Below the pieces are notes generated by a model. That model was not told where the DNA came from. It saw only the letters and a list, made by a program, of their open reading frames with translations, and searched no databases. Of a DNA stretch of 64,000 nt, positions 3,172-52,252 are shown in pieces. Origin of the DNA: a virus (Duplodnaviria > Caudoviricetes); the IMG/VR virus record IMGVR_UViG_3300020577_008743, positions 33,491-97,490 of that record; one strand, 5' to 3'. The stretch's first letter is position 1; each line of letters begins with the position of its first letter. The translations under genes were made by a program, and so were the position numbers.

Positions 3172-3206
3172 AAATAGGTCATCGTAACTGAATGAAAGGC
3201 TTCACC

Positions 3207-4010
3207 ATGGACGCCCGGAAATCCGTAGCACTGCACACCCTCGTCGCTGTTCGCCCGACGTTGGAAACAACCCTGAAAACGATCTCAGCCGAAACGGACA
3301 ACTCCTTCCGAAAACCCGAAAGCCTGACGGAATGGGAAAAGACCTTCACATCGACGGTCACCTGGCCGGAAGGCTCCGAGGCTCTGAAGGTCGCTCTGGA
3401 ATCCCAACGTTCCGGTCACCGTGCGGCGGTCACTTCAACTCAGGATCGAATCGGTTACGAAGCCGCCGAACAGGTCAAGTACTGGGACTTGATGCACAAC
3501 ATCGAGCTGGGCAACCAGGTCGCGGTTGCTGACGTGGTCCTAAAAGACGGCACAGTCTTGATGACCCGCGTCCCCGCAACGCACTTGCGTCGACTGGATA
3601 CGTGGCTCACCACCTTCCGCAACCGCATCGCGAACTGTCCCACGGTCCCGTCAACTATCAACGTGGAACAGGCCTCCCGCAACGGCAGAATGGTCTACGC
3701 CGGACCGGTGAAAACCATCACCGTGTACGAGGAAACCAAAAGCTGGGTGAAGGTCGCCGAGGCCAATGTACACCAGAAGGAAGCCACCGTCCGCGAAGCC
3801 GTCACCAAGACGCCAATCGGCATCGAGAAGGAGATCAACTACTACGGCATGCCCACTTCTTCGGAGAAGGCACAGCTGCTGACCCGTCTTGATGAGCTGA
3901 TCGTGGCAGTCAAGGAGGCGATCACTGAATCAAACACGGTGACCATCGAACCCGTTTCGGTCTCCAAAACTCTCATGGCCTATGCCTTCACCGGCAAGGT
4001 CAATGCCTGA
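3207..4010 (+). CDS. conserved helical hypothetical protein (resembles DUF7873-like family)
   Basis: LHTLVAV N-terminus, N..AVADVV..DG.VL...VPATHL..LD, LL.RLDEL..AVKEA..ESN pattern recalled from a widespread actinobacterial/phage family; GAAAGG RBS. Confidence 0.6.
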   Translation: MDARKSVALHTLVAVRPTLETTLKTISAETDNSFRKPESLTEWEKTFTSTVTWPEGSEALKVALESQRSGHRAAVTSTQDRIGYEAAEQVKYWDLMHNIELGNQVAVADVVLKDGTVLMTRVPATHLRRLDTWLTTFRNRIANCPTVPSTINVEQASRNGRMVYAGPVKTITVYEETKSWVKVAEANVHQKEATVREAVTKTPIGIEKEINYYGMPTSSEKAQLLTRLDELIVAVKEAITESNTVTIEPVSVSKTLMAYAFTGKVNA

Positions 4011-4028: not shown

Positions 4029-4407
4029 GTTTGGCTAACGCACATTGCGCAACTCACAGCTGACATTGGGTCTGATAACCCTGAGGGTTATCTTGCAAGG
4101 CCCACAAACGCACAACGCAAAACGCCAAACAAACGCACATAACTTCCTGGAGTAGAAAACCGCCGAAAACATCGCCTTGGAGTTTCAAACGAAATCGTGT
4201 CGGGGGTTCGAGCCCCTCCGCCGCTTCAAATTGCATACTAACGTGTGTAATTCGGAGCGGTGTAACTCAGTGGTAGAGTACGGTTTCCAATACACCCAAA
4301 AAACCTCTAATGAGCGTGGTCAAAAGCACAACCAGGTATACTAATAGCGTATATTGCTACCAATGATACCAGGTCCCTATGGGGTCGGATAATGCCCTGT
4401 GGGGACC
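4029..4407 (+). ncRNA. large structured RNA with circularly permuted tRNA-like domain (4191-4287)
   Basis: T arm GGGGG-TTCGAGC-CCCTC, then acceptor CGCCGCT/AGCGGTG closed by a hairpin, then D arm ACTC-AGTGGTA-GAGT; nested long-range stems; AACGC repeats; terminal hairpin 4372-4407. Confidence 0.75.
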
Positions 4408-4461: not shown

Positions 4462-4773
4462 AGGTAAAGTAACTGCTGTACTAAAAAAAAGCAAAGTGGG
4501 TGTAACATCCACACGTTTCTTTCAGTCCTAACAACTTGTGTCGTTCGCCTTTGGGCTCACTGGCCCCCTAACGGGTGCCCCACAAGTTGCCAGCTCTGAT
4601 GAGCTGGGCCTCAGGATCCAACGACTGGGTCCCCGGGGACTGGATGTCTTCTTGCACACCCGGTGCATTTTGGATGCTGAGCAAGATGGGCAACGCAATT
4701 GCCCGCCGGCTCAGTGAGATCTGCAGACATCGTCACCTGGTGTTGTTCTGGATCCCGAAGGTCGAGTTTACCT
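4462..4773 (+). ncRNA. candidate structured ncRNA (GUA/GAG family, member 4, ~310 nt)
   Basis: AGGTAAA/TTTACCT closing stem; helices CAACTTGTG/CACAAGTTG (4532-4540/4581-4589), TTCAGTCC/GGACTGGA, CCAGCTC/GAGCTGG, GGGCAA/TTGCCC. Confidence 0.6.
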
Positions 4774-5033: not shown

Positions 5034-5171
5034 TAGGACCGCAGAATTACGATTATCTATAATAGCTGACATGCTGCAGGTTCGAGTCCTGCCTGGCCCA
5101 CCATCTATGGGTCCAGTGGCGAAATGGTATACGCATCAGCCCTAAACCAGTCGTATTCATAATTTGTCCTA
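5034..5171 (+). ncRNA. Y RNA, YrlA-type (Ro-binding stem plus permuted tRNA-Leu-like domain)
   Basis: TAGGAC-CG...TTT-GTCCTA stem, TTATC motif, T arm GCAGG-TTCGAGT-CCTGC before acceptor loop and D arm. Confidence 0.85.
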
Positions 5172-5244
5172 TTCTTCAACGGGGGCGAAGTAGAAACTTA
5201 TGAAGTTCGCAGCTTCTATTTTTCGATACGCTTCCACCAACAAA

Positions 5245-5571
5245 ATGTCTCACACAACCGAGTTGTACTTCGAGTCACATATCACTATTGAGCCCGTGTT
5301 CGATGAAAGACTGGAACAGTTCAAGGGAATATGTGCTTCGGAGGGTTTCAAGGCAGCAGAGCTGCTGATGAAAAAACGTTCGGGTGATACCGCTGAACGT
5401 TCGCAGTACGATACCTTTTGCACTAGTAGAGATCTTATTTATGATAAAATCCAGACTAGAACATTAACCTTGGTCGAAAAGTTGCAGTCTTCCGGGTTTG
5501 ACGTCTGGAGATATAAGATTGAGAATACCTTGTTGGATGTTAGACTTAAATTAGAGTCTAAAATCCAGTAG
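5245..5571 (+). CDS. hypothetical protein
   Basis: ORF between Y RNAs; YFESHITI...RYKIENTLLD pattern; ATG at 5245 avoids the upstream hairpin. Confidence 0.7.
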   Translation: MSHTTELYFESHITIEPVFDERLEQFKGICASEGFKAAELLMKKRSGDTAERSQYDTFCTSRDLIYDKIQTRTLTLVEKLQSSGFDVWRYKIENTLLDVRLKLESKIQ

Positions 5572-5672
5572 GGCAAAAGATTCGATTGTTGTTTATATTA
5601 CTAAATATATTGAGTCTGTAAAAGCTGTTTGCAGTAGAATCAAGAAACATTCGTAGTACTAGAAGCATCCTC

Positions 5673-5734
5673 AGGGCCGCAGGAAGATCGGTTATCCCCT
5701 ACACTGATGACTCCGATTTCCGTATTTTCGCCCT
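5673..5734 (+). ncRNA. minimal Y-like RNA
   Basis: AGGGC-CG...TTC-GCCCT stem, upper stem ATCGG/CCGAT, GGTTATC motif. Confidence 0.8.
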
Positions 5735-5744
5735 TCCCCCAATT

Positions 5745-5805
5745 AGAGCCGATTTGAGCTGGGTTATCCTTCTAAGATACCTCCCCATCTCAGTTCCCTT
5801 GCTCT
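5745..5805 (+). ncRNA. minimal Y-like RNA
   Basis: AGAGC-CG...CTT-GCTCT stem, upper TGAG.TGGG/CCCA.CTCA, GGGTTATC motif. Confidence 0.8.
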
Positions 5806-5834
5806 CCCTCTTGTAGTTGTGGTACAATCAACTT

Positions 5835-5963
5835 TTGAGCCGCTGTTAAATTCCGTTATCTTCCTTAGAAATAGGAAGTTGCGGGTTCGAATCCCGTCGC
5901 CAGCTTATATCTGGCGTAGTTTAATTGGTAAAACTAAAACCGGAACTACACTAATTCGCTCAA
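5835..5963 (+). ncRNA. Y RNA, YrlA-type with permuted tRNA domain
   Basis: TTGAGC-CG...TTC-GCTCAA stem, TTATC, T arm GCGGG-TTCGAAT-CCCGT, acceptor CGCCAG/CTGGCG, D arm GTTT-AATTGGTA-AAAC. Confidence 0.85.
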
Positions 5964-5970
5964 CCCCATT

Positions 5971-6040
5971 TAGGGCCGTCAGGTTATGTCGGTTATCTCA
6001 CTTTTAGCGAAAACCCCGATTAACCATAAATTTTGCCCTA
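5971..6040 (+). ncRNA. minimal Y-like RNA
   Basis: TAGGGC-CG...TTT-GCCCTA stem, GGTTA..TCGG/CCGA.TAACC upper stem, TTATC motif. Confidence 0.8.
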
Positions 6041-6059
6041 CTGATTTAAATTTCAATTT

Positions 6060-6119
6060 GGAGCCGCTTAAAACTGGGTTATCAATTGGTGATTACTCCC
6101 CAGTCTAACTTTTCGCTCC
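6060..6119 (+). ncRNA. minimal Y-like RNA
   Basis: GGAGC-CG...TTC-GCTCC stem, ACTGGG/CCCAGT upper stem, GGGTTATC motif. Confidence 0.8.
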
Positions 6120-6173
6120 TCCCGTTTAAACAAAGATTGCTGGGTTCAAACCTCTTTCTTTTAGCTGTTCAAA

Positions 6174-6377
6174 ATGACCTCTCACAGAAAAATTACCCCG
6201 TCTGAACGAAATATTCTCCACCTCATAAATCGTAGCATAGCGGATTCAGAAGGCTGGTGTAATGTAAGTTCTGCCGTGTTTCCCCTTGTCAAAGACTTTG
6301 ACTCTGAACTAGTTGAAATAAACGGCAACAAAATTCGGTTGACATCGGTAGGTAAGATACTTGCAGATTGGACTTGA
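6174..6377 (+). CDS. hypothetical protein
   Basis: ORF in a tightly packed small-gene run. Confidence 0.6.
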   Translation: MTSHRKITPSERNILHLINRSIADSEGWCNVSSAVFPLVKDFDSELVEINGNKIRLTSVGKILADWT

Positions 6378-6379
6378 TT

Positions 6380-6751
6380 ATGACCGACTCAGAACTAATA
6401 CAAAATGCGGCTAAAGCCATCGGACTCATTGCAACCCCGATATTTACGGAAAATTTCGAGGGCCAGGAGTGGTGGGCGTATGAAGAAGGCAAGCCTACAC
6501 AAACGCTAAGGCCGTGGAATCCTCTTGTGGATGATGGGGATGCCCTACGGTTGCTCGTAGAACTTGGAGACTATGTCCAGGAGGGGAGCTGGCCTTATAT
6601 GTGGGGAGAGGCCCAAGAACAGGCTAAAGAAAACGATGGGCAAATAGACTGGTGTAAGGTTGTTCGTAGAACCATAGTAAAAGCTGCCGCCAATAAATGG
6701 TTAAGGATGGATAGATCAAATGAAAAAGCAACCTCTAAATCCGCAGATTGA
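6380..6751 (+). CDS. conserved phage hypothetical protein
   Basis: ELIQNAAKAIG...WNPLVDDGDALRL...RRTIVKAAA pattern typical of phage small proteins. Confidence 0.75.
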   Translation: MTDSELIQNAAKAIGLIATPIFTENFEGQEWWAYEEGKPTQTLRPWNPLVDDGDALRLLVELGDYVQEGSWPYMWGEAQEQAKENDGQIDWCKVVRRTIVKAAANKWLRMDRSNEKATSKSAD

Positions 6752-7013
6752 AAAACTTCTCGAGTTGTTAGACAAGGCCACGGAAGAACAACGAGGCAGC
6801 GAGAGGGCCCTGTACCTGTTGCTGAAACTCAATGTCGCTGTTCTTCCTGAACTGGATTACAGTTTTCACAAGGCTTTCAGACAGTATGATGTAACTGAGT
6901 CCGGTGAAATGGATATGGCAATCTGGCATCTTTTAGGGGTTTCAAAGACGTTCTGGGAGGTGTTCGGGAAAATTACCGGAACAGATGATGAGGAGCCCGG
7001 CGAAGATGGCTAG
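6720..7013 (+). CDS. hypothetical protein
   Basis: ORF overlap-coupled to neighbours. Confidence 0.65.
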   Translation: MKKQPLNPQIEKLLELLDKATEEQRGSERALYLLLKLNVAVLPELDYSFHKAFRQYDVTESGEMDMAIWHLLGVSKTFWEVFGKITGTDDEEPGEDG

Positions 7014-7224
7014 AATAGAACTTATCTTCCCCGAGGAAGGATACCGTGAAGTAATCGGTGAAAGAGCACTCACTTTGGAAGAGGCTTTTGAAGCAGGAGT
7101 ATTTTGGGCGACCAGGCAGTTTCAAAGTAAATTCGGCATGTACTACCGCAAAGATGAGTGGGGAGAAAGAGACTACGTAGATGTAAAGTCCATTTTCCCC
7201 GATCATGTCAGGGACAAGATATGA
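7006..7224 (+). CDS. hypothetical protein
   Basis: ATG at 7006 with AGGAG upstream. Confidence 0.6.
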   Translation: MARIELIFPEEGYREVIGERALTLEEAFEAGVFWATRQFQSKFGMYYRKDEWGERDYVDVKSIFPDHVRDKI

Positions 7225-7397
7225 CCTGTAGGTTTTGCAACAAACCTTCCGTCAGTTACTACGATATATCTTTGACTGGTATTGGCAATTTCATTGAATA
7301 CTGCAAGAATCACCAGGAAGAGGCTCGTCAAAAGCGCGATGAGCATGATAGATATTGGGAAGAAATCCGAAAGGAAGTTATGAGGGAAAATGGCTAA
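7221..7397 (+). CDS. small Cys-containing hypothetical protein
   Basis: ATGA overlap with previous gene; CxxC...CxxH. Confidence 0.6.
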   Translation: MTCRFCNKPSVSYYDISLTGIGNFIEYCKNHQEEARQKRDEHDRYWEEIRKEVMRENG

Positions 7398-7773
7398 AGT
7401 AACCTGGACAATAGAGGATCACATATGTAGTTCTTGCGGGGGTCGAATAGTAAGATCAGCCAAGGGAACTGGTCCCACCCCTGGAGGAAATCCCGTATAC
7501 AAGTGTTCTTTATGTGGTAAAGTTACAACAGAAATGGGAGGTCATTCCCTGTGTTGGTGCGGATATTCACAGAAATCCAATAACAACTCCCTTCCATATA
7601 AATGCGTTCCGTATTCGATATTAGAGAAATACCCTGACGGCTTAAGTTACTTTAAGTTTTGTGGATGTGATCCTAGGCGGGGAGGGGAAGTGGGAGTAAT
7701 GTTAGAGGAGGATTGGAATGAACTTAGAAAAAAAGACATTGCCGTACAAGTCATACCACCAACAGCTGATTGA
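7390..7773 (+). CDS. Cys-rich putative zinc-binding protein
   Basis: CxxCGG, CxxCG, CWCG motifs. Confidence 0.7.
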   Translation: MAKVTWTIEDHICSSCGGRIVRSAKGTGPTPGGNPVYKCSLCGKVTTEMGGHSLCWCGYSQKSNNNSLPYKCVPYSILEKYPDGLSYFKFCGCDPRRGGEVGVMLEEDWNELRKKDIAVQVIPPTAD

Positions 7774-8119
7774 GGCTAACACCAAAACAGAGGCTCTTCG
7801 AGAACTAATCTCAACATTGGGTGAATTGTTGGTAAAAGAACAGGAAGCCCGTATTTTATACGAAGATGCTGTATGGAAAATGGTCAACGATGGTTGGTTA
7901 GTCCACGGTCCGGAAGGCATGAGTGAAGCTCAACAAGCTGTCTATGATGTTTGTAAAAATCATCCGGAGCTAAAAACTCGAATAAAACAAAAGCAAGAAG
8001 AACAGAGAAATTACGAAGAAGCTACGAACAGAAATGTTCGGCTAGAATCCACTCCGGGAACATACGTACCAAATCCCAAACCCCTACCAGCCTGGCGTCG
8101 TTTGTTTCGCTGGCTGTAA
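7718..8119 (+). CDS. hypothetical coiled-coil protein
   Basis: ORF with GAGGAGG RBS. Confidence 0.65.
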   Translation: MNLEKKTLPYKSYHQQLIEANTKTEALRELISTLGELLVKEQEARILYEDAVWKMVNDGWLVHGPEGMSEAQQAVYDVCKNHPELKTRIKQKQEEQRNYEEATNRNVRLESTPGTYVPNPKPLPAWRRLFRWL

Positions 8120-8125
8120 CCAAAT

Positions 8126-8253
8126 TTGAGCCGTTAGAATTTGATTATCCAATCGCAGGACGTGGTCAAAGGTTCGAATCCTTTCTCCCCCGCCATCAAT
8201 GGGGGAGTAGCTCAGAGGTAGAGCACGTAAACTCGAATTCTGTTTTTGCTCAA
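8126..8253 (+). ncRNA. Y RNA, YrlA-type with permuted tRNA domain and encoded GCCA
   Basis: TTGAGC-CG...TTT-GCTCAA stem, TTATC, T arm AAAGG-TTCGAAT-CCTTT, acceptor CTCCCCC-GCCA.../GGGGGAG, D arm GCTC-AGAGGTA-GAGC. Confidence 0.88.
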
Positions 8254-8260
8254 TTCCAAT

Positions 8261-8391
8261 TTGGACCGAAGTTATTCAGTTATCGCTCCCAATGCGCCAG
8301 ATCGGTTAAGTCCAGCACCCGTTGATTCATGGGTCGTAGTGTATAGAAGCACGGCGCATATTTTCAATTGATTAACGTTCACTTTGTCCAA
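8261..8391 (+). ncRNA. Y RNA with degenerate tRNA-like domain, immediately 5' of Ro60
   Basis: TTGGAC-CG...TTT-GTCCAA stem, AGTTATC, TGCGCC/GGCGCA helix, GG-TTAAGT-CC T-like loop. Confidence 0.8.
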
Positions 8392-8431
8392 CTCTGTTTT
8401 TACCCGTAGTAAACCAACCTGGAGAACCGAA

Positions 8432-10108
8432 ATGTCTGCAAAGAATCTTGTGAATCACCTCGTTCCGGGCCGCTATGCTTCCATTCCTGCGAAGCGTACT
8501 CCCGCCGCCCCGAAGGTGACCAAATCCACCAACCCGAACGCTGGCCTGCCGCCAGTGTCCACTTCTGCGTATCAGAAAACCGCCGCCGGCCAAGTTCAAA
8601 ACTCGTCCGGAGCCTATGTTGGCAAATTGGATGTGTGGGCTCATCTGAATCGGTTTCTCATTCTCGGCACTTCCGGCTCGTCCTACTACGCCTCAGAGCG
8701 CAAGATGACCGTTGACATGGCCAAGGCCGTGGAAGCTGCAGTGAAATACAACGGCATTTCCACCGTCGATCTGATCGTGGAAATCAGCCAAGCCGGTGCC
8801 GCTCCAAAGAATGATCCGGCCTTGCTGGCTCTGGCCATCTGCGTCGCCAAGGGGGATGATTCCACCAAGGCCTACGCAATGAACCAGCTGCCGAAGGTAG
8901 CCAGAATTTCGACTCACCTGTTCGATTTTCTGACCTACGTTCAGGCCATGAGAGGCTGGGGAAGAACCCTGAAAGAAGGTGTTGCCAACTGGTATACTTC
9001 CAAGGATCTGAACCCCTTAGCCATGCAGATGACGAAGTATCGTCAAAGAAATGGCTGGACTCACCGCGACGTTCTGAGACTGGCTCACCCGAAGCCCACC
9101 TCCGAGTCCATGAACAATCTGTTCAAGTGGGCCATCAAAGGTCCAGAAGCACTGGAAAGAGGTGCGGAAATCCCTGAACAAGTCATCGGCTTCGAGAAGG
9201 CAAAGACCGCAGGTTCCGGTACTCTGGTCAAACTGATTCAGGATTACCGCCTGACCTGGGAGATGATTCCGACTGAGATGCTGAATGATGCCAACGTGTT
9301 TCACGCTCTAGTCATGAGCATGAATCTCGAGGCCATGATTCGCAATCTGCCGCGCATCACCAATCTCAACTTGTTGCTTACTCGGGAAGTCAGGGACCGT
9401 ATTCTGAGTCTTCTGAGAAACGCAGAGGAGATCAAGGCCAAGCGGTACCATCCCCTCAAGGCTCTGGTGGCTAGAAAGACCTACGCCAGTGGCCGAGGTC
9501 TGAAGGGTAGCATGACCTGGGTACCCAACGCCGAGGTTGCCAGGGCCCTGGAAGACACGTTCTATCTGGGGTTCGATGCAGTGGAACCCACAGGCAAAAG
9601 ACTTCTGTTGGGTATCGACGTCTCCGGCTCCATGACCATGGGCCAAGTAGGGGGCATGCCCCTTGCTCCGTACGAAGCTGTTGCCGCAATGGCAATGGTT
9701 ACGGCACGTTGCGAACCTCTGGCAGAAATCCTCGGCTTTTCGTACAACCTGCAAGACCTTGGTATCAAGAACACCGATACTCTGGCCCAGGTTCTGAAGA
9801 AAGTGCAATTGGCTCGATTTGGAAGTACGAATCCCGGAGCACTAATTCAGTACGCAGCCAAGAAAGGCAATGTGGAAGGCCTGGTCGTCTACACCGACAA
9901 CGAAGTGAACCAAGGTTCCAGCGTTGCGGCAGAGATGAAGAAATATCGCACCAAGGCTTCTGTGGCCAGAGCAACGATGACTGTAGTCGGAATGACGGTC
10001 AACAATTTCACCCTAGCCGACCCCAAAGATCCAGACATGCTCGACATTGTTGGATTCGATACCGCTGCTCCAGCAGTGATGTCCGAGTTCATCAAGGGCA
10101 CTTTCTGA
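8432..10108 (+). CDS. rsr: Ro60/Rsr RNA-binding protein (TROVE plus vWA)
   Basis: LNRFLILGT..SSYY, KYRQRNGWTHRDVLRLAHPK TROVE signature, DVSGSM MIDAS, YTDNE, DIVGFD; ATG 8432 with GGAG RBS. Confidence 0.96.
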   Translation: MSAKNLVNHLVPGRYASIPAKRTPAAPKVTKSTNPNAGLPPVSTSAYQKTAAGQVQNSSGAYVGKLDVWAHLNRFLILGTSGSSYYASERKMTVDMAKAVEAAVKYNGISTVDLIVEISQAGAAPKNDPALLALAICVAKGDDSTKAYAMNQLPKVARISTHLFDFLTYVQAMRGWGRTLKEGVANWYTSKDLNPLAMQMTKYRQRNGWTHRDVLRLAHPKPTSESMNNLFKWAIKGPEALERGAEIPEQVIGFEKAKTAGSGTLVKLIQDYRLTWEMIPTEMLNDANVFHALVMSMNLEAMIRNLPRITNLNLLLTREVRDRILSLLRNAEEIKAKRYHPLKALVARKTYASGRGLKGSMTWVPNAEVARALEDTFYLGFDAVEPTGKRLLLGIDVSGSMTMGQVGGMPLAPYEAVAAMAMVTARCEPLAEILGFSYNLQDLGIKNTDTLAQVLKKVQLARFGSTNPGALIQYAAKKGNVEGLVVYTDNEVNQGSSVAAEMKKYRTKASVARATMTVVGMTVNNFTLADPKDPDMLDIVGFDTAAPAVMSEFIKGTF

Positions 10109-10155
10109 TTTACAGTTTCACGTACTAGCCCAAAAACCGACTGGGTTGGTATTTT

Positions 10156-10182
10156 AGGGTGCAGAACATCGTACCCTTTTTT
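10156..10182 (+). terminator. intrinsic terminator after rsr
   Basis: AGGGTGC/GTACCCT hairpin plus T-run. Confidence 0.7.
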
Positions 10183-10235
10183 AGCCTTTACTTGGTATAA
10201 GGGAAATAACGAGACGAATTATTTAAGGAGCAGTT

Positions 10236-11819: not shown

Positions 11820-12428
11820 ATGAGTCAGCCACCAGTTTACCGCAACACTCTCCCCGATCATCTGTTTCAGATGTACCCGCTGTTGAAACGTACCCTCACG
11901 CTGATTCAGCTGGGACACGCCGGTCAGTTGTACAACGGGCATCCTTACTGGCATCATCCGGTGCGGGTTGCCATGAGGCTGGAATCACTGTGGGTACAGA
12001 ACGAGGGGTCTTTGCTGTATTCCGCTCTTCTTCACGACTTGATCGAAGATACTTCCCTGGAAGTCGATGATTTGAAGGAGTTCGGATATTCCGACACCGT
12101 GGTAAAAACGGTCAAAGCCCTGACTCATGATGCATTCGATACCCGGACGTACATGGAGTATGTCCAGGACATCACCATTCATCCGGAGTCTTTCGTTCGC
12201 CACGGAGCCAGCCTTGTCAAGTTGGCAGACCTGACGGAGAACGTGAACGGAGCCAGGTTTCTGCCCATGGAGAAAAGGGGAAGAATGGAACGTTACGGAA
12301 AGGCAATATCGGTCATTCAAGACTCTCTCATTCTTCACAGCCCCTGGGTAGCCCACTCCGTCCACGTCGGTGAGTTGGACGCAGCCAAGCTTGAGATGTG
12401 GTTCGGCCATCCCCCAGCGTTTCTGTAA
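11820..12428 (+). CDS. HD-domain hydrolase, RelA/SpoT hydrolase (SAH/Mesh1)-like
   Basis: HAGQ...PYWHHP, ALLHDLIEDT, VKALTH, VKLADLTEN motifs. Confidence 0.85.
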   Translation: MSQPPVYRNTLPDHLFQMYPLLKRTLTLIQLGHAGQLYNGHPYWHHPVRVAMRLESLWVQNEGSLLYSALLHDLIEDTSLEVDDLKEFGYSDTVVKTVKALTHDAFDTRTYMEYVQDITIHPESFVRHGASLVKLADLTENVNGARFLPMEKRGRMERYGKAISVIQDSLILHSPWVAHSVHVGELDAAKLEMWFGHPPAFL

Positions 12429-12469: not shown

Positions 12470-12546
12470 CTGCCCGTAGCTCAGTTGGATAGAGCACCGA
12501 GCTTCTACCTCGGGTGTCGGGGGTTCGAATCCCTCCGGGCAGGCCA
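12470..12546 (+). tRNA. tRNA-Arg(TCT)
   Basis: Cloverleaf CTGCCCG/CGGGCAG, CT-TCT-AC loop, encoded CCA; promoter motif at 12441. Confidence 0.95.
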
Positions 12547-13626: not shown

Positions 13627-13716
13627 GGAAGAATGGCCGAGTGGTTAAGGCAACGGATTGCTAATCCGTCACTGACGTGAGTTGGTGCCAGGGTTCGATT
13701 CCCTGTTCTTCCGCCA
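13627..13716 (+). tRNA. tRNA-Ser(GCT)
   Basis: Cloverleaf with long variable arm, TT-GCT-AA loop, G73, CCA. Confidence 0.95.
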
Positions 13717-14696: not shown

Positions 14697-15206
14697 ATGA
14701 ATGAAACAATCATAGGAGACAGTACAGGAGATTTTCACATCCTTAAGGGGGGGTATATGACCCCTGCAAGCTCCGGGGATTACTCTCGTCTGACAGGAAT
14801 GCAGCACCCCTGGAAAGACAGACATAGAGACATCTCTTGGCCCCTGCCCCCCGTTCAGTCCAAAGAACTTCCCCCGATGCAGCCTGAAACTCCGAAGGCT
14901 AAAAAAGAGGTCCCAGCTTCGGAATTTCTAGAGGAGGCTTCTAGAGTAATGAAGGCTAGAGCTGCTCAACGGGATGCCCAGAACGGCGAACGTAGCATGG
15001 CCAAAACCGTGGAAATGTTCAACGCCTATAAGGGAATAAGTCTGTCGGAATCCGACGGCTGGGTGTTCATGGTCCTACTCAAATTGGTGAGAGGATCTCA
15101 GGGCCAGTTTCACATGGACGATTACGTTGATGGGTCGGCGTACTTCAGCCTGCTGGGGGAAGCCGAATCAAAAGGGAGGGAACCCCGTGAAGATTCAAGT
15201 ACTTAG
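14697..15206 (+). CDS. phage protein with C-terminal DUF6378-like domain
   Basis: LEEA...R..QRD..GERSM...GWVFMVLLKLVR...DDYVD..AY..L.GE. Confidence 0.7.
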   Translation: MNETIIGDSTGDFHILKGGYMTPASSGDYSRLTGMQHPWKDRHRDISWPLPPVQSKELPPMQPETPKAKKEVPASEFLEEASRVMKARAAQRDAQNGERSMAKTVEMFNAYKGISLSESDGWVFMVLLKLVRGSQGQFHMDDYVDGSAYFSLLGEAESKGREPREDSST

Positions 15207-15918
15207 TGATCTACACTACGAATTCAACGAAGGTTACTATTTAAAAAAAGAGCACTTCGTTGGAGACGTAATAGTCCTGGCTGGGGACATCTGTAGCCTA
15301 CCGGATCACAGATTTGCAGATCTTCCGGATGTACCTGTGATTCATGTGCTGGGTAATCATGAACACTATGGCAAGAACTTTGTCGATACCAAGCGTAAGA
15401 CGGAAGATGCTTGGCTGCGGCTAGGCAAAGAGAACGTCAGCGTGCTGAACAATCAGGTTCGAGTGGAAGACGGAGTCAGATTCCTCTGCACCACTCTTTG
15501 GACTGATTTTCTCACCGAAGACAAAATGTATCAGATGGCTGAGTGTAAAAGGGGAATGAACGATTTCTACCAAATTCGTAACTTCACCACCGCCACCTGG
15601 ATCTACGAAAATGACGTGGCCGTGACGTGGCTGAAGCAGGAACTGGCCAAAGAGCACGAAGGAAAGACGGTGGTAGTTACTCACCATGCCCCTTCTTTCA
15701 AAAGCAATGGGGAATGGTACAGAAACAGTAGTATCCGTGCCGGGTTTTGTACTGACATGGAGTATCTAATGAAGGAGGAGAAGATTGACCTCTGGATTCA
15801 CGGTCACACTCACGAACCGGCCGATTACATGGTTGGATCAACAAGAGTGGTGTGTAATCCTCTGGGGTATCGAGCTGAGAATCCCAGATTTCAAGAATCG
15901 CTTGTAGTAGAAATTTGA
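15187..15918 (+). CDS. calcineurin-like metallophosphoesterase
   Basis: SDLH, LAGD, GNHE, THHAP, HGHTH, NPLGY motifs; GTG start 15187. Confidence 0.93.
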   Translation: MKIQVLSDLHYEFNEGYYLKKEHFVGDVIVLAGDICSLPDHRFADLPDVPVIHVLGNHEHYGKNFVDTKRKTEDAWLRLGKENVSVLNNQVRVEDGVRFLCTTLWTDFLTEDKMYQMAECKRGMNDFYQIRNFTTATWIYENDVAVTWLKQELAKEHEGKTVVVTHHAPSFKSNGEWYRNSSIRAGFCTDMEYLMKEEKIDLWIHGHTHEPADYMVGSTRVVCNPLGYRAENPRFQESLVVEI

Positions 15919-16939: not shown

Positions 16940-18169
16940 ATGAGCCAACACGAAGTACTAATATACAAGGCAAAGCTGCTGCCTCATCCCAACGCGGATA
17001 TGATAGAGCTTTGTCAGATCGGAGACTACCTCTCTATTGTCAAGAAGGGTGATTTCAAGGAAGATCAGCCGGTAGCCTATATTCCTGAACAATCAATTGT
17101 TCCAGAACCTCTTTTGGAAGAAATGGGGTTGAAGAACAAGCTCTCTGGTGCAGCCCGAAACCGGGTCAAAGCCATCAAGTTGCGTGGTACTCTATCCCAG
17201 GGCTTGGTGTACGTCAAACCGGGAGGTTACGCCGAAGAGGACGTAGGTCGAAACGTAGCTGAAGAGCTGGGGATCATCAAGTGGTCTCCGACTCTACCGG
17301 TCCACCTACGAGGAAAAGCCAAAGGCATGGCTTACGATATTACTGTCAACTACGATATAGAGAATATCAAAAAATGGAACCGACACATTGAAGAAGGGGA
17401 CTTGGTAGTAATCACCGAGAAAATTCATGGAACAAACGTCCAGATTGGTTATGCTCCACGTTGTGGGAGCAGTGGCGGAGGGGTGGGCATTAGTTATGAC
17501 GGACAGTCTTCCTCCGGAGGGCCCGATGGAGGTGGGTCAGGCGTTGACGTGGTCTCATCCGAGACCAGGAATATTCTGTTTGAGAACTCATTCTGGGTTA
17601 GTTCAAAAGGTTTGGGTGGTAGGGGAATCATTCTCGATATGGAAGATTCCTCCAACGTTTACGCCAATATTGCTCGTTCCATCGAATATAACCTTCTTGA
17701 GAAAATCCGCAATTTTTACACCGGAAAAAACCTCAGACACATCGAGTATCTCTCAGGCCTTCAATGCCCCCCGATAGTCCTGATAGGAGAAATATTCGGG
17801 CCAGGTATTCAAACAGGTTTTCACTACGGTCAAACCAAGCCTGAATTCAGGCTATTCGACATTGCTGTAGGCCCTCGTAATAACAGGATGTACCTGAGCT
17901 GGGACGATTACATGCAAGCAGCCTTTATCATGGGCATTCCGACAGTCCCTACTTTGTATATCGGTCCGTTCTCAAAAGAGATTCTGGCACAGTACACCTC
18001 TGGCAAGGAAAAGGTTACCAACCATTCCCACCACATGAGGGAAGGTTGCGTAGTTCGGTTGATCAATGAGAAGTCTTCAGGAAACCTGGGCAGGGTTATT
18101 CTGAAGAGCATATCGGAAGAGTATCTAACTAGAAAAGGTACCGAGGAAGAATTGACGGAGTACCAGTGA
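16940..18169 (+). CDS. ATP-dependent RNA ligase, DRB0094/Rnl5 type with N-terminal OB domain
   Basis: PHPNAD.IE, RVKAIKLRG..SQG, motif I TEKIHGTN, GEIFG, FDI, EGCVV, ILKSIS. Confidence 0.92.
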   Translation: MSQHEVLIYKAKLLPHPNADMIELCQIGDYLSIVKKGDFKEDQPVAYIPEQSIVPEPLLEEMGLKNKLSGAARNRVKAIKLRGTLSQGLVYVKPGGYAEEDVGRNVAEELGIIKWSPTLPVHLRGKAKGMAYDITVNYDIENIKKWNRHIEEGDLVVITEKIHGTNVQIGYAPRCGSSGGGVGISYDGQSSSGGPDGGGSGVDVVSSETRNILFENSFWVSSKGLGGRGIILDMEDSSNVYANIARSIEYNLLEKIRNFYTGKNLRHIEYLSGLQCPPIVLIGEIFGPGIQTGFHYGQTKPEFRLFDIAVGPRNNRMYLSWDDYMQAAFIMGIPTVPTLYIGPFSKEILAQYTSGKEKVTNHSHHMREGCVVRLINEKSSGNLGRVILKSISEEYLTRKGTEEELTEYQ

Positions 18170-40094: not shown

Positions 40095-40294
40095 TTGTAA
40101 ACGGAGTAGTAGGAAGAGACTGACAGGACGTATTGGATTAGAAAGGCTTGTAGTTTTGCGGAGAATTGCTGCTTTGCAAAACAGTCATAAGCGTGGCTGT
40201 TATCTGACAGAAGCCCTTGAGAAATGATGTTGGTAGAAATCAGGTTGGCCTGATCCAACTTCCCGTCCTGAGGGCCGTATACGAGCTTTGACAT
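40091..40294 (-). CDS. hypothetical protein
   Basis: Short ORF after late-promoter motif. Confidence 0.5.
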   Translation of the reverse strand: MSKLVYGPQDGKLDQANLISTNIISQGLLSDNSHAYDCFAKQQFSAKLQAFLIQYVLSVSSYYSVYK

Positions 40295-40309
40295 ATTATA
40301 TTTTAGCCC

Positions 40310-42754
40310 TTATTCCTGATTCCAAAAAGGGTCATAATCAAGAAACGGACTTTCCCCAGGTTCTAGCTGGTCTTTGTCCTTGAGGACTTCGTTAGTGTAC
40401 TTGATTACGGTAGGGTTGTAGTTACTAGGTGTCATGTCAATGAAATCGACACCCTTTCTTTCTTCAACCTTACCTCTGCTTTCAATGCTTCGGTAAACCA
40501 ACTCCAAGTTACCTTCTGTTGATAGCATTTGATTGGTCTCCCCGCCGTTTGCGTCTATGACCGAACCGGTAACTCCAGTTAGAAGAGGGCTGTTGCCTTC
40601 TCTTTTCACGGGATTGATTCCACCAGTCTCAAAGTTATACAACTGGTCAGGGGAAGCAGCTCTAATTCCCAGGGAAGTGTAATAGAAATCATCTGCTGTG
40701 GATTTAGCCTCCTTGTTGCCTATGATCGTCTGCTTTTCCGCCAGATTCAGGTTGACTTGAAGCCAGGGATGGATCGGAGGTTGGTAATAGTTAGCCAACT
40801 CCGTGTAGGACATGGCACAAGCAAAGGACACCGACGTGGAGATAGAAGATCCCGTAAACGTATGGGTAACTGAAGTACAATAGGCATGAAAACTGGGGTG
40901 ACTAGGAGTGTCGTCCAGAATCTCCATTGGGTATCCCGGTACGATGTAGGGGTTGAACACACACTCCACGTTACCGGCCTTGGATCTGCCAATGGCCATA
41001 CCAAAGCTGTAGTCTGCAGAAGCCATTAGAAGCTTCTGGTAGCTGTTGAGACCAGAGTCCTGACTCCAAGGGTTCAGATTGCTGTTCTTGGTGCCGTAGC
41101 GGGCTTCCCAACCCTTGGATAACTTTGTGATATTAGCCTGAGCAGCTTCCATGGATTGAGGTGTAGCGTCACCTGATCTGACCCCCGCTGCTGCACTTGA
41201 GGCGTAGTAAGCCAGCCATCTTGGCATGATGGACTTTTCAAACTTGACTCCACGACCTTGTTCATACTTGCCCAGTTTACCGTGGGAACCAGCTAGAGTG
41301 TTGGCTAAATTTCCTCTAGGTACGTCGGTTACTGGAGTTGAGGACGCGGGAATATCAACAGAAGTCCTGGTTCCCGGCTTGTTCGCTTCTAACGCTGATC
41401 TCGTCGTTTTCGTGGTGGAACTGGAAGCACCAGTAGATCCAACTTCTTTAGTCTCGGTGCCCCTGGCTGTAGATATAGCCTCACGGATGGATGGAGGGGA
41501 CCGAAAATTCGTCCCTCCGATGTTAGAAGCCCCGGGTAGTTCATCGTTCCGGATATTAATTCTAGTAGGTATATTGTATTCATCCTGAGCGATATTAATC
41601 GACCTGATCATGTTAGGATACAGCACATTACACATAGGGGCGTAGTAGAACGGGAGCTGGGGTTTCACAATGACGTCCATTCCCAACGTAACAGGTTCTC
41701 CCGTACTGAGGTCAACTAATCCTGCGCTTCCTGGAGCAGGAATTTCAACAGGGGATGCCAGGAACAATAGCTCATAATCAAACACAGACAGAAACTTACC
41801 CCATACTCCGATCATATCCGCAAGCTCGCCAGAGAACTGAAGAGTCTGCTGGGTTAACTTTACAGCCAAGTCCGTTTCTACCGCTGCCCGAAGAAAGGTT
41901 TGAAGAGACGGTGGAACTATTCGTTTCTTGTTGTTTGCGCCGGGATTAGGAATACCAGGACAGGGATCAACCCTATCGTTCTCTATCAATGTCTCAATGA
42001 GGTAATGTCCACCCATTCTCTCGAATAGCTGCAATCCTTCTTCCACAAGAGGAATATACAGCTTGTTCATCATTTCGTTTTCTTCAATATCCCAGTATGC
42101 ATTGATTTTCATTTGATTCCAGAAGTTCAACAGAATACCGGGAATACCTTCAAATCTGGTTGCGTAATCTTTGAGACTCTCTGGAAGAACGGCTGGAGAA
42201 GTTACGGCGGTATTGTTTTTTTTATCAGTCAGGATTCCATCCAAGGTTACTTCTTTAGAATCACCCTTTAAGTATCCGTCTCTGAATATTCCAGTCATGG
42301 CGAGGGAAATGGCATAGTCAGAACTCATGGACGGCTGCTTTGCTGCCCCTTCATTAGTGGCATTGGGATTCAACAACTCACTAGTCCAGCCAGCATAGTC
42401 CAGCAAAAGCTGGGTTAAGTGAGTGTAAGTATGCAAGCAAGAAAAGGAGATAGAAACACCCCCGCCCCCTTCCGAAGTCTTAGAGTAATTTACAGAGGCT
42501 ATGAAGCCTGTAAATAGAACTTTTTCCTCCCCGTCTACCGGGTCGACGAAAAAGATATGGACTTTAGGGTTGTAGTAACGAGCAATGTCCATCATCCCAA
42601 TCTGTGGCGGGACGGAGATATTGGCGGTTGGGAGAGAACCTATTTGGGAAGTGACACTGATGGATAAAAAGGGGACCTGAACTCCTTCTATGAAGAGTTT
42701 TATATCCTGGAAGATTACATCAGTTTTACCCTTTTGAGGAAAAGGTCTGGACAT
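40310..42754 (-). CDS. putative baseplate hub protein
   Basis: KLFIEGVQVP...VHIF...LFTG; FNPYIVPGYP...V.H hub-like C-terminus. Confidence 0.6.
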   Translation of the reverse strand: MSRPFPQKGKTDVIFQDIKLFIEGVQVPFLSISVTSQIGSLPTANISVPPQIGMMDIARYYNPKVHIFFVDPVDGEEKVLFTGFIASVNYSKTSEGGGGVSISFSCLHTYTHLTQLLLDYAGWTSELLNPNATNEGAAKQPSMSSDYAISLAMTGIFRDGYLKGDSKEVTLDGILTDKKNNTAVTSPAVLPESLKDYATRFEGIPGILLNFWNQMKINAYWDIEENEMMNKLYIPLVEEGLQLFERMGGHYLIETLIENDRVDPCPGIPNPGANNKKRIVPPSLQTFLRAAVETDLAVKLTQQTLQFSGELADMIGVWGKFLSVFDYELLFLASPVEIPAPGSAGLVDLSTGEPVTLGMDVIVKPQLPFYYAPMCNVLYPNMIRSINIAQDEYNIPTRINIRNDELPGASNIGGTNFRSPPSIREAISTARGTETKEVGSTGASSSTTKTTRSALEANKPGTRTSVDIPASSTPVTDVPRGNLANTLAGSHGKLGKYEQGRGVKFEKSIMPRWLAYYASSAAAGVRSGDATPQSMEAAQANITKLSKGWEARYGTKNSNLNPWSQDSGLNSYQKLLMASADYSFGMAIGRSKAGNVECVFNPYIVPGYPMEILDDTPSHPSFHAYCTSVTHTFTGSSISTSVSFACAMSYTELANYYQPPIHPWLQVNLNLAEKQTIIGNKEAKSTADDFYYTSLGIRAASPDQLYNFETGGINPVKREGNSPLLTGVTGSVIDANGGETNQMLSTEGNLELVYRSIESRGKVEERKGVDFIDMTPSNYNPTVIKYTNEVLKDKDQLEPGESPFLDYDPFWNQE

Positions 42755-52161: not shown

Positions 52162-52179
52162 ACCCCTGGTTTGACGAAG

Positions 52180-52218
52180 AAACAGCTTGGGTCCTTGGGG
52201 ATTCAAGCTGTTTTTTTT
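52180..52218 (+). terminator. strong intrinsic terminator after Ubl
   Basis: AACAGCTTGGGTCC/GGATTCAAGCTGTT plus T8. Confidence 0.85.
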
Positions 52219-52252
52219 AGGTGTAAATTTCCCGTTAAGAGGATAACAAAAT

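What the first reader, a model, noticed from the sequence alone, without database searches (positions are those of the whole stretch)
5034..10108. Phage Ro60 with an expanded set of eight Y-RNA-like genes sharing one Ro-binding module
Seen: eight elements (5034-5171, 5673-5734, 5745-5805, 5835-5963, 5971-6040, 6060-6119, 8126-8253, 8261-8391) follow the grammar G(R)(R)C-CG-N11-14-TTATC...YTY-G(Y)(Y)C. The terminal helix covaries (GGAC/GTCC, GGGC/GCCC, GAGC/GCTC) and each has an upper stem. The last two abut a TROVE-vWA Ro60 gene. Known: Ro60 binds the Y RNA lower stem (animal GGUCCG...UUGAC with a bulged C); characterised bacterial loci carry one or a few Y RNAs (Yrn1, YrlA/YrlB), and Y RNA tethers Rsr to PNPase in Deinococcus. 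Inference: the phage uses one Ro ring with a library of interchangeable RNA adaptors (constant Ro-binding foot, variable effector loop) to recruit, decoy or redirect several host RNA enzymes.
Basis: partly seen in the sequence, partly recalled or inferred. Interest (0 to 1): 0.95.

Follow-up and report, generated by a model that had tools for sequence, protein, structure and literature searches.

The report
Phage Ro60 with eight Y RNAs
An uncultured wastewater/freshwater phage carries a canonical Ro60 ring-protein gene preceded by eight small RNA genes that share one Ro60-type "handle"; this is a real and rich example of a known protein-RNA system, and arrays like it turn out to be common next to Ro60 in other phages and in bacteria.

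Summary
All eight elements exist at the stated coordinates on the + strand.

Ro60 (8432-10108) is a full-length TROVE+vWA orthologue. Its E-value is 9e-98 to Deinococcus Rsr and 4e-91 to Xenopus Ro60.

The elements fall into two classes:
- **Long (e1, e4, e7, e8).** e1, e4 and e7 carry YrlA-type permuted tRNA-like domains, with Rfam hits below threshold. e8 has a degenerate cloverleaf-like interior.
- **Short (e2, e3, e5, e6).** These are minimal 60-70 nt stem-bulge RNAs.

All eight share one handle: a covarying 5-6 bp helix, a bulged C, a G.U or G-C pair, an upper stem, then UUAUC. The same features mark animal Y RNAs and nematode sbRNAs.

A covariance model of the short class finds 141 copies in 81 viral Ro60 loci and 126 in 80 cellular Ro60 loci. 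Every copy lies on the Ro60 strand, and covariation is strong. In four whole bacterial genomes all nine hits lie at the Ro60 locus.

Eight is at the high end but not unique. A uniform census gives 7 here, up to 7 in phage loci and up to 8 in cellular loci.

The "library of adaptors" idea is plausible. One loop is 100% conserved across phages whose Ro60 is only 45-47% identical. Binding and function remain untested, and I found no expression data.

This scan has noted similar Ro60-adjacent RNA arrays before on other DNA.

The parts
5034..5171 (+). e1: long Y RNA gene (138 nt) with the Ro60 handle and a permuted tRNA-like domain (T arm, closed acceptor stem, D arm). The acceptor-closing loop keeps discriminator + CCA.
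   Evidence: Sequence; fold. Full-length Rfam YrlA alignment at 20.7 bits, E 0.85 and E 0.003 for the genome alone. Grammar hit.
5673..5734 (+). e2: short stem-bulge Y RNA gene (62 nt): foot AGGGC/GCCCU, bulged C, G-C pair, upper stem GAUCGG/CCGAUU, loop starting UUAUC.
   Evidence: R2 family model 40.3 bits.
5745..5805 (+). e3: short stem-bulge Y RNA gene (61 nt). Its loop is about 85% identical to loops in L005, L007 and L013.
   Evidence: R2 52.2 bits. Loop comparison.
5835..5963 (+). e4: long Y RNA gene (129 nt) with handle, V hairpin, T arm, closed acceptor hairpin and D arm.
   Evidence: Rfam YrlA 33.5 bits, E 1.7e-4 and 1.3e-5. MFE fold shows a four-hairpin cloverleaf inside the handle.
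5971..6040 (+). e5: short stem-bulge Y RNA gene (70 nt). The upper stem is 5+5 bp with a bulged U.
   Evidence: R2 39.1 bits.
6060..6119 (+). e6: short stem-bulge Y RNA gene (60 nt). A 27-29 nt core (upper stem plus loop) is 100% identical in five related phage contigs.
   Evidence: R2 42.8 bits. Loop identity. Those phages share only 45-47% Ro60 identity and, in the three of them searched, about 50% TerL identity.
8126..8253 (+). e7: long Y RNA gene (128 nt) with handle, 10-bp upper stem, T arm, 7-bp acceptor stem closed by a loop that keeps G-CCA, and a D arm.
   Evidence: Rfam YrlA 36.4 bits, E 2.5e-5 and 9.7e-8 for the genome alone. Fold. CCA census.
8261..8391 (+). e8: long Y RNA-like gene (131 nt). 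It has the most animal-like handle (GGACCGAAG ... CUUUGUCC). Its interior is a 7-bp stem closing three hairpins (a degenerate T-like arm, an acceptor-like and a D-like hairpin).
   Evidence: No Rfam family hit, so the class assignment rests on my reading of the fold.
8432..10108 (+). Ro60 orthologue (558 aa): TROVE ring plus vWA domain with a MIDAS DVSGS motif.
   Evidence: Pfam vWA_Ro60 1.2e-41 and TROVE 2.8e-39. PDB sequence matches: 2NVO 9e-98, 1YVP 4e-91, 9NEN 1e-89, each over nearly full length. Invariant D396-S398-S400 in alignment A1.
10156..10185 (+). Terminator-like hairpin followed by a T run, 48 nt after the Ro60 stop. It is the likely end of the transcription unit.
   Evidence: This is a pattern match only, and such sites are not enriched over shuffles.
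5200..5571 (+). ORF of 123 aa of unknown function, between e1 and the e2-e6 array, on the same strand.
   Evidence: No Pfam match.
6174..8119 (+). Block of small same-strand ORFs of unknown function (one weak DUF7238 match) that separates the e2-e6 array from e7-e8. The last ORF stops 6 nt before e7.

Best explanation
The region 5034-10185 is a phage Ro60-Y RNA module, probably one same-strand transcription unit. It encodes a canonical Ro60 ring protein and eight Y RNA genes.

**The handle.** Each RNA ends in the same handle: a terminal 5-6 bp helix, a bulged C, a G.U or G-C pair, a small internal loop, an upper stem and then UUAUC. By analogy with Xenopus, Deinococcus, Salmonella and Thermus-phage phiLo Ro60, this handle is the Ro60-binding site. 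The UUAUC probably acts as the hinge between the handle and the effector part.

**The effector parts.** They differ. Three are YrlA-type closed tRNA mimics, one is a degenerate cloverleaf, and four are 20-23 nt loops.

**Most likely mechanism.** The RNAs are cut out of the operon transcript and stabilised by Ro60. They then act as gates and tethers that couple the Ro60 ring to host RNA enzymes or tRNA-binding proteins. PNPase is the precedent, and the phage record encodes none. The purpose would be RNA surveillance or repair during infection, with different RNAs giving different partners or specificities.

**Shown here:** the gene content, the shared covarying structure, the exclusive genomic association of this RNA family with Ro60, and conservation of individual loops.

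**Inferred:** expression, processing, Ro60 binding, the partners and the biological role.

I put about 0.9 on 'these are Y RNA genes serving this Ro60' and about 0.3-0.4 on 'each RNA recruits a different partner'.
For: - **Ro60 identity:**
- **Eight elements with one grammar:** 8 observed against 0.025 expected.
- **tRNA-like domains of e7, e4 and e1** match Rfam YrlA at 36.4, 33.5 and 20.7 bits.
- **Family model R2 on viral loci:** 141 hits in 982 kb of viral Ro60 loci, all on the Ro60 strand. 92.4% of cells are paired against 64.3% in shuffles and 38-46% with slid partners. There are 546 double-change cells against 175; 0 of 500 shuffles reach this.
- **Independent cellular set, none in training:** 126 hits, all on the Ro60 strand. 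94.7% paired against 73.7%; 443 double-change cells against 129; 0 of 500.
- **Whole genomes:** five bacterial genomes (about 35 Mb) were searched. Four had hits, and all 9 hits lie at the Ro60 locus.
- **Relatives of the short class** reach the Rfam nematode sbRNA model, whose consensus is GGUCCG...UGGGUUAUC...CAACUUGACC, at 38.1, 37.0 and 34.2 bits against a gathering score of 38.
- **UUAUC** is the conserved 5' loop motif of sbRNAs and vertebrate Y RNAs (PMC4450293, PMC4726728). YrlA has a conserved YUAY at the same place (PMC4201824), and its UA makes a kink in the crystal structure (bioRxiv 10.1101/312249).
- **Loop conservation:** the e6 core is 100% identical in phages with 45-47% Ro60 identity; the three of them searched have about 50% TerL identity.
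- **The handle is a self-contained module.** In L019, L025 and L032 the same handle occurs capped by a loop inside ordinary-topology tRNA-like RNAs.
- **Precedents:** phiLo Ro60 binds two phage Yrl RNAs and host PNPase (PMC12135203). YrlA was reported in 22 phages (PMC4201824).
- **RNA-repair-type neighbours:** HD protein, metallophosphoesterase, RNA ligase and tRNAs.
Against: - No transcript, processing or binding data exist. No RNA run holds the sequence.
- No promoter or terminator enrichment marks individual genes.
- The window's own short elements do not hit any Rfam family. The long ones stay far below the YrlA gathering score of 69 bits.
- The strict bacterial motif GNCGAAN0-1G is absent from all eight.
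- e8's interior is unrecognised by any model.
- The covariation alignments were fitted to the model structure. The phage training set was picked with a scanner that required pairing. The cellular set is free of the second bias but not the first.
- Nothing identifies any partner enzyme.
Confidence: 0.7

Rival explanations
1. This is an anti-defence RNA-repair or decoy module. The tRNA-like Y RNAs act as decoys or sensors for host tRNA-cleaving defence nucleases. Ro60, together with the nearby phosphoesterase and RNA ligase, handles damaged tRNA/RNA. The system would then be mainly counter-defence rather than general RNA decay. This overlaps with the main explanation and differs in the biological target.
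For: - The same-strand neighbourhood holds an HD protein (11820-12428), a metallophosphoesterase (15127-15918), an RNA ligase (16940-18169) and three tRNA genes.
- Jumbo-phage TROVE proteins are discussed with RNA ligases as RNA-repair platforms (PMC7824862).
- The bacterial rsr-yrlBA-rtcBA operon is regulated by damaged tRNAs (PMC7790460, title and abstract only).
- A Ro60-like protein of phage Bas63 counters the Ppl defence system (PMC11482910).
- Three or four of the eight RNAs are tRNA mimics.
Against: - The repair genes lie 5-8 kb away and are not shown to be co-regulated.
- The four short RNAs have no tRNA-like part.
- The acceptor ends are closed and anticodon loops are absent, so anticodon nucleases would have no target.
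- There are no functional data.
Confidence: 0.25
2. The eight RNAs are redundant paralogues. They all do the same job (for example saturating or gating Ro60), and their number reflects gene duplication, dosage and turnover rather than a library of different adaptors.
For: - Copy number varies widely between related loci, from 0 to 8.
- Classes present in relatives, such as a 150-166 nt class, are missing here.
- BLAST finds counterparts for only one of the eight elements.
Against: - The e6 core is 100% identical and the e3 loop is about 85% identical across phages whose Ro60 is only 45-47% identical (TerL about 50% where checked), while their stems have changed. This argues for sequence-specific loop function.
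- Two structurally distinct classes are kept side by side in many loci.
Confidence: 0.2
3. The elements are cis-acting signals in the operon transcript (processing, termination or antitermination sites) or leftovers of tandem tRNA genes. They would not be stable trans-acting RNAs.
For: - Spacers of only 7-29 nt and the lack of individual promoters imply co-transcription.
- e1 and e7 keep discriminator + CCA + spacer, like a tRNA-tRNA junction.
- Chen et al. warn that tandem tRNAs can mimic YrlA (PMC4201824).
Against: - ARAGORN and Rfam find no tRNA genes there.
- The flanks of the tRNA-like parts form the covarying handle instead of the missing tRNA halves.
- The same handle family occurs only beside Ro60 in phages and bacteria.
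- The handle matches eukaryotic Y/sbRNA architecture.
Confidence: 0.04

Closest known systems
Bacterial and phage YrlA-type Y RNAs with Rsr/Ro60 (Rfam RF02553; Chen et al. 2014, PMC4201824; crystal structure, bioRxiv 10.1101/312249)
   Same: - Encoded within 4 kb of Ro60 and on the same strand.
- The 5' and 3' ends pair into the Ro60-binding stem.
- The effector part is a closed, permuted tRNA mimic (V, T, acceptor, D).
- A conserved YUAY/UUAUC sits at the start of the V region.
- e7, e4 and e1 align to the model.
   Different: - Scores of 20-36 bits are far below the gathering score of 69.
- Both strands of the Ro60 helix are conserved, with an animal-type bulged C. In Salmonella and Mycobacterium YrlA only the 5' GNCGAA motif is recognisable.
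- There are four such RNAs here, plus four that lack a tRNA-like domain.
Thermus phage phiLo Ro60 with Yrl1/Yrl2 (PMC12135203)
   Same: A phage-encoded Ro60 with Y-RNA-like genes directly upstream. Binding and a ternary complex with host PNPase were shown there. That is the best experimental precedent for the mechanism proposed here.
   Different: - phiLo has two RNAs, not eight.
- Its Ro60 is only distantly related to this one (E 6e-6, against 9e-98 to Deinococcus Rsr).
Animal Y RNAs and nematode stem-bulge RNAs (Rfam RF01656; PMC4450293, PMC4726728)
   Same: - Lower stem with a bulged C, then G.U.
- A GC-clamped upper stem.
- UUAUC as the first loop nucleotides, followed by a variable loop.
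- Multigene families (4 in human, at least 18 sbRNAs in C. elegans).
- Relatives of e2-e6 score up to 38.1 bits against RF01656, whose gathering score is 38.
   Different: - The genes here are prokaryotic-virus genes in an operon. There is no Pol III promoter and no oligo-U/La tail.
- The window's own four short RNAs do not reach the sbRNA model.
- The review literature treats bacterial Y RNAs as not homologous to the vertebrate clades.
- The DNA-replication role assigned to UUAUC in eukaryotes has no obvious counterpart here.
Deinococcus radiodurans Rsr-Yrn1-PNPase (RYPER) and Salmonella YrlB
   Same: - The Y RNA acts as gate and tether between the Ro60 ring and an exoribonuclease.
- Deinococcus keeps both strands of the Ro60-binding helix.
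- YrlB is a second Y RNA in the same Salmonella locus as YrlA (PMC4201824).
   Different: I made no sequence comparison with Yrn1 or YrlB, because no reference sequence was at hand. This phage record has no PNPase (RNase PH domain), so any nuclease partner would have to be the host's.

Membership tests
Ro60 / Rsr protein family | TROVE (HEAT-repeat ring) domain followed by a vWA domain, with full-length similarity to solved Ro60 structures | tested here: met
   Pfam TROVE 2.8e-39 and vWA_Ro60 1.2e-41. 2NVO residues 13-532 of 535 aligned at E 9e-98; 1YVP at 4e-91; human 9NEN at 1e-89.
Ro60 / Rsr protein family | MIDAS motif (DxSxS) in the vWA domain | tested here: met
   D396, S398 and S400 are invariant in the 13-sequence alignment A1. 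DVSGSM is visible in the alignment to 2NVO.
Y RNA (functional definition: RNA bound by Ro60) | Physical association with Ro60, and Ro60-dependent stability | not testable with these tools
   Needs RIP, EMSA or Northern blots. No RNA run was listed.
Y RNA (genomic criterion of Chen et al. 2014) | Encoded within 4 kb of the Ro60 gene on the same strand | tested here: met
   e8 ends 41 nt upstream of the Ro60 ATG, and e1 starts 3.4 kb upstream. All eight are on the + strand.
Y RNA (Ro60-binding module) | 5' and 3' ends pair into a conserved helix with a bulged C (animal GGUCCGA / UUGACC type) | tested here: met
   - 5-6 bp helix, bulged C and G.U/G-C in 8 of 8 elements.
- Helix covariation within the eight, and in 112 + 125 distinct family members.
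- e8 reads GGACCGAAG...CUUUGUCC.
YrlA (Rfam RF02553) | Score at or above the curated gathering threshold (69 bits) | tested here: not met
   Best scores are 36.4 (e7), 33.5 (e4) and 20.7 (e1) bits; e8 has no hit. They work like YrlA but are not formal Rfam members.
YrlA (Rfam RF02553) | tRNA-like domain in the order V - T arm - closed acceptor stem - D arm | tested here: met
   Met for e1, e4 and e7, from the alignments to the model and the folds. For e8 the result is inconclusive: a three-hairpin junction with a degenerate T loop.
YrlA (Rfam RF02553) | 5' motif GNCGAAN0-1G (PMC4201824) | tested here: not met
   None of the eight 5' strands (GGACCGC, GGGCCGC, GAGCCGA, GAGCCGC, GGGCCGU, GAGCCGC, GAGCCGU, GGACCGA) contains G-N-C-G-A-A. 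They fit the animal GGNCCG form instead.
Nematode sbRNA / animal Y RNA (RF01656, RF00019) | Lower stem with bulged C, upper stem, and UUAUC at the 5' end of the loop | tested here: met
   UUAUC follows the upper stem in 8 of 8 elements. The literature definition is in PMC4450293 and PMC4726728.
Nematode sbRNA / animal Y RNA (RF01656, RF00019) | Rfam model score at or above the gathering threshold | tested here: not met
   No RF01656 or RF00019 hit at E <= 10 for window 5660-6130. Relatives in other phages reach 38.1, 37.0 and 34.2 bits against a gathering score of 38.
Nematode sbRNA / animal Y RNA (RF01656, RF00019) | Pol III gene with an oligo-U 3' tail | tested here: not met
   The genes are packed 7-29 nt apart in a phage operon, and no element is followed by a T run.

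The most novel reading that the evidence does not exclude
The Ro60-adjacent stem-bulge RNAs of phages and prokaryotes would be true homologues of animal Y RNAs and nematode sbRNAs. The window's e2, e3, e5 and e6 are four examples, and the same handle is built into e1, e4, e7 and e8.

On this reading the whole handle, including the UUAUC hinge, is an ancient Ro60-recognition and positioning module. It would predate eukaryotes or have moved horizontally into them. UUAUC would then belong to Ro60 biology rather than to DNA replication specifically.

In this phage the eight handle-tagged RNAs would be a working library, each coupling the one Ro60 ring to a different host RNA enzyme or substrate class.
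Probability: 0.3. Interest if true: 0.8.

Novelty: new variant of a known kind. Interest (0 to 1): 0.6.

Why it matters
Ro60-Y RNA particles are conserved from bacteria to humans and are a major autoantigen, yet what most Y RNAs do is still unclear.

This phage offers a compact natural system: one canonical Ro60 and eight handle-tagged RNAs of two classes. The family-level data have three consequences.

- **A new prokaryotic class.** The animal-type handle (bulged C helix, upper stem, UUAUC) is widespread next to Ro60 in phages and bacteria. No Rfam family or paper I could search covers this prokaryotic class.
- **A link between motifs.** The bacterial YrlA 'YUAY' motif and the eukaryotic 'UUAUC' motif occupy the same position, so they are probably the same feature.
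- **Testable questions.** What does UUAUC do? Do different Y RNA loops select different partners? Both can be tested with recombinant phage Ro60 and short synthetic RNAs.

There is also a practical point. Some of these phage RNAs cross the Rfam threshold for a nematode sRNA family, so they can be mis-annotated.

Tried and rejected
I could not fetch the two closest Ro60 relatives (68% and 60% identity) or compare their arrays.
- **Phage GenBank collection.** blastn of the region gave no match.
- **Viral scan with the single protein** found one locus only. The alignment-based scan was needed.
- **JGI metagenome scan** gave only three distant, short loci.
- **Sequencing runs.** No RNA holder was listed. 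Laying DNA contigs of four runs showed near-identical sequence with a single T>C at 5866. That gave no natural variation for a within-species covariation test.
- **Models R1 and R2** cannot span the roughly 80-nt interiors and misalign the window's long elements. I assessed the long class with Rfam YrlA and by folding, and did not build a third model.
- **MAFFT alignment of the four long elements** (A3) was too poor to use.
- **Promoter and terminator scans** show no enrichment over shuffles and no per-gene signals.
- **My loose descriptor scanner** has a high false-positive rate: 109 minus-strand hits against 283 plus-strand hits. I used only the strict scanner plus R2 for the census.
- **Retention of CCA** in the acceptor-closing loop is not a general feature. 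The scan caught 2 of 34 permuted tRNA-like domains; e1 also keeps CCA but is missed because of a stem bulge.
- **A GGGUUAUC at window 4085-4092** is half of a simple palindromic hairpin, not a handle.
- **The review PMC10870794** could not be read, and the supplementary tables of Chen et al. 2014 are not held. I do not know the highest published Y RNA count per locus.

Full report
**What is there**

The window is part of a 97.5-kb IMG/VR virus record estimated at 63% complete. It carries a large terminase, virion proteins, a helicase and an RNA ligase, so it is a large tailed phage. Near-identical DNA is present in contigs from runs labelled riverine, wastewater and freshwater metagenomes, in studies other than the probable source.

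The ORF 8432-10108 (+) encodes a 558-aa protein. It matches Pfam vWA_Ro60 (1.2e-41) and TROVE (2.8e-39). It aligns over nearly its full length to Deinococcus Rsr 2NVO (E 9e-98), Xenopus Ro60 1YVP (4e-91) and human RO60 9NEN (1e-89). The Thermus phage phiLo Ro60 is only a distant match (6e-6). The MIDAS DxSxS motif is intact. This is a canonical Ro60.

**The eight elements**

All eight are at the stated coordinates on the + strand, in gaps between same-strand ORFs.

- With the 3' YTY-foot tail added, the count is 8 observed against a mean of 0.025 (maximum 1) in 200 dinucleotide-preserving shuffles.
- Read from the sequence, the terminal helix is 5 bp in all eight and 6 bp in five, with no mismatch in the 5-bp core.
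- Three core positions covary among the eight paralogues: A-U/U-A/G-C, G-C/A-U and G-C/A-U.
- A bulged C follows in all eight. The next G faces U (5 elements) or C (3 elements).
- After 11-14 nt, which include the 5' strand of a 5-10 bp upper stem, every element reads UUAUC.
- Each folds with these two helices.

**Two classes**

- **Long (e1, e4, e7, e8; 128-138 nt).** e7, e4 and e1 carry a permuted, closed tRNA-like domain (V region, T arm, acceptor hairpin, D arm). They match Rfam YrlA at 36.4, 33.5 and 20.7 bits. That is clearly related but far below the family's 69-bit gathering score. ARAGORN and Rfam find no real tRNA there. e8 has the most animal-like handle. Its interior is a 7-bp stem closing three hairpins, which I read as a degenerate version of the same plan. 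No model recognises it.
- **Short (e2, e3, e5, e6; 60-70 nt).** These are minimal: handle plus a 20-23 nt loop.

Five elements (e2-e6) stand in tandem with 7-29 nt spacers. e7 and e8 lie directly before Ro60, and e1 lies 500 nt before the array. There are no per-gene promoter or terminator signals. The last upstream ORF stops 6 nt before e7, and a terminator-like hairpin follows Ro60. Co-transcription and processing therefore look likely, but this is inferred.

**Is the handle a real, Ro60-linked RNA family?**

An alignment-based scan found 353 IMG/VR contigs that encode a Ro60 relative, of which 80 loci were kept. A strict descriptor scan of these loci found 152 handle-bearing elements, 144 of them on the Ro60 strand. 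They often form tandem arrays of 4-7 beside Ro60.

I built a covariance model (R2) from 44 diverse short elements.

- **Viral loci.** R2 found 141 matches (E <= 0.01) in 982 kb, all on the Ro60 strand. On the resulting alignment, 92.4% of cells pair, against 64.3% in column shuffles and 38-46% with slid partners. There are 546 double-change cells against 175, and 0 of 500 shuffles reach this.
- **Cellular loci.** On 80 Ro60 loci from cellular genomes, none used in training, R2 found 126 matches, again all on the Ro60 strand. The phyla include Chloroflexota, Verrucomicrobiota, Myxococcota, Armatimonadota and others, and some loci sit on Mb-scale contigs. Here 94.7% of cells pair against 73.7%, and there are 443 double-change cells against 129 (0 of 500).
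- **Whole genomes.** I searched five genomes of 4.5-9.7 Mb. Four had hits, and all nine hits lie inside the Ro60 locus.

Two caveats apply. The alignments are fitted to the model. The phage training set was chosen with a scanner that required pairing. The cellular set removes the second bias.

**Resemblance to eukaryotic Y RNAs**

Relatives of the short class in other phages hit the Rfam nematode stem-bulge RNA family RF01656. Its consensus is GGUCCG...UGGGUUAUC...CCCA...CAACUUGACC. The scores are 38.1 bits (at the gathering score of 38), 37.0 and 34.2 bits. The window's own short elements are more diverged in the 3' strand and give no hit.

The literature defines UUAUC at the 5' end of the loop as a conserved feature of sbRNAs and vertebrate Y RNAs (PMC4450293, PMC4726728). 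It also describes bacterial Y RNAs as highly divergent from the vertebrate clades (PMC4726728). Chen et al. noted a conserved YUAY at the start of the YrlA V loop (PMC4201824). In the YrlA crystal structure, the UA of that motif kinks the stem that leads to the Ro60 module (bioRxiv 10.1101/312249).

In the elements here, UUAUC sits at exactly that position. I therefore infer that YUAY and UUAUC are the same feature: a hinge between the handle and the effector. I found no paper that states this equivalence.

**How unusual is eight?**

A uniform census (strict scanner plus R2) scores this window 7, because it misses e8. By the same method phage loci range from 0 to 7 (mean 2.4) and cellular loci from 0 to 8 (mean 3.0). 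One Chloroflexia chromosome reaches 8.

The nearest phage lineage carries tight arrays of 6-7. Its Ro60 is 45-47% identical, and TerL is about 50% identical in the four records of the lineage where it was found. So the set is large relative to published loci, but not unique. Published counts are 355 YrlAs in 276 genomes (PMC4201824) and two RNAs in phiLo (PMC12135203).

**Evidence bearing on the 'adaptor library'**

The 27-29 nt core of e6 (upper stem plus loop) is 100% identical in five related phage contigs, although their lower stems and proteins have diverged. The e3 loop is about 85% identical to its counterparts. This argues for sequence-specific loop function and against pure redundancy.

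In L019, L025 and L032 the same handle occurs capped by a small loop, in place of the anticodon arm of ordinary-topology tRNA-like RNAs. This shows that the handle is a portable module.

Beyond that, nothing identifies partners. The phage record has no PNPase, so a nuclease partner would be the host's. An HD protein, a metallophosphoesterase, an RNA ligase and three tRNA genes lie on the same strand within 8 kb. That fits the RNA-repair context proposed for phage TROVE proteins (PMC7824862) and the finding that a Ro60-like phage protein counters a defence system (PMC11482910).

**Verdict**

The Y RNA identity of the eight elements is well supported (about 0.9). The specific functional reading is plausible but untested (about 0.3-0.4).

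The system is a known kind: phage Ro60 with Y RNAs. What differs from published descriptions is the eight-gene, two-class organisation and the animal-type handle with UUAUC. That handle belongs to a large prokaryotic and phage RNA family that is in neither Rfam nor any paper I could search.

Earlier notes of this scan describe similar Ro60-adjacent arrays on other DNA. I treated them as leads only.

Noticed in passing
window 5092-5118 (e1) and 8185-8207 (e7): The loop that closes the acceptor-like stem keeps discriminator + CCA + a 4-nt spacer (A-CCA-UCUA, G-CCA-UCAA), as at a tRNA-tRNA junction. This fits the published idea that YrlA arose from dimeric tRNA transcripts. A scan of permuted tRNA-like domains in the viral loci and the window found N-CCA in 2 of 34 (e7 and L014); e1 also keeps it but was missed because of a stem bulge.
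   Followed up: partly
L019:5132-5255, L025:5633-5761, L032:3507-3629: These are ordinary-topology tRNA-like RNAs (Rfam tRNA 43-51 bits) beside Ro60 in other phages. Their anticodon arm is replaced by about 61-64 nt. In L032 and L019 this insert is the same Ro60 handle (…CUUGCCC-loop-GGGCCGAAG…UUAUC) capped by a small loop. That makes them a circular permutation of the YrlA design.
   Followed up: partly
window 4198-4279 (+): A further permuted tRNA-like domain (Rfam YrlA 24.5 bits) lies downstream of a DUF7873 gene (3192-4010). It lacks the Ro60 handle grammar. A weaker YrlA-like hit (22 bits) lies outside the window at G000:C1:28216-28283.
   Followed up: partly
L005:4997-5160, L004:4914-5079, L008:4778-4925, L009:4558-4717: A 148-166 nt handle-bearing class with a conserved multi-hairpin interior (no T loop) is present in the related phage arrays. 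It is absent from this window.
   Followed up: no
L021:5651-5724: A phage Ro60-adjacent RNA scores 38.1 bits against the Rfam nematode sRNA family RF01656 (gathering score 38). Standard annotation would therefore label it a nematode sbRNA.
   Followed up: no
window 11820-12428, 15127-15918, 16940-18169; tRNAs at 2864-2940, 12470-12546, 13627-13716: An HD-domain protein, a calcineurin-like phosphoesterase, an RNA ligase (RNA_ligase plus OB-fold domains) and tRNA-Met, tRNA-Arg and tRNA-Ser genes flank the Ro60 module on the same strand. This is an RNA-repair-type neighbourhood.
   Followed up: partly
window 4676-4715 (-), 40269-40313 (+), 49013-49060 (+): These are short hairpins whose stems resemble the handle foot (GAGCCG...UUGCUC-like). 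They match the R1/R2 models only weakly (E 0.2-2) and are probably chance or terminator hairpins.
   Followed up: no
window 5866: This is the only variant seen in four metagenome runs: T>C in the V hairpin of e4, in one low-depth contig. Otherwise the region is identical across runs from different studies.
   Followed up: no
window 51961-56746: An earlier scan note reports a ubiquitin-like conjugation operon in this phage. Other notes link such modules to Ro60-like RNPs in other phages. I did not examine this region.
   Followed up: no
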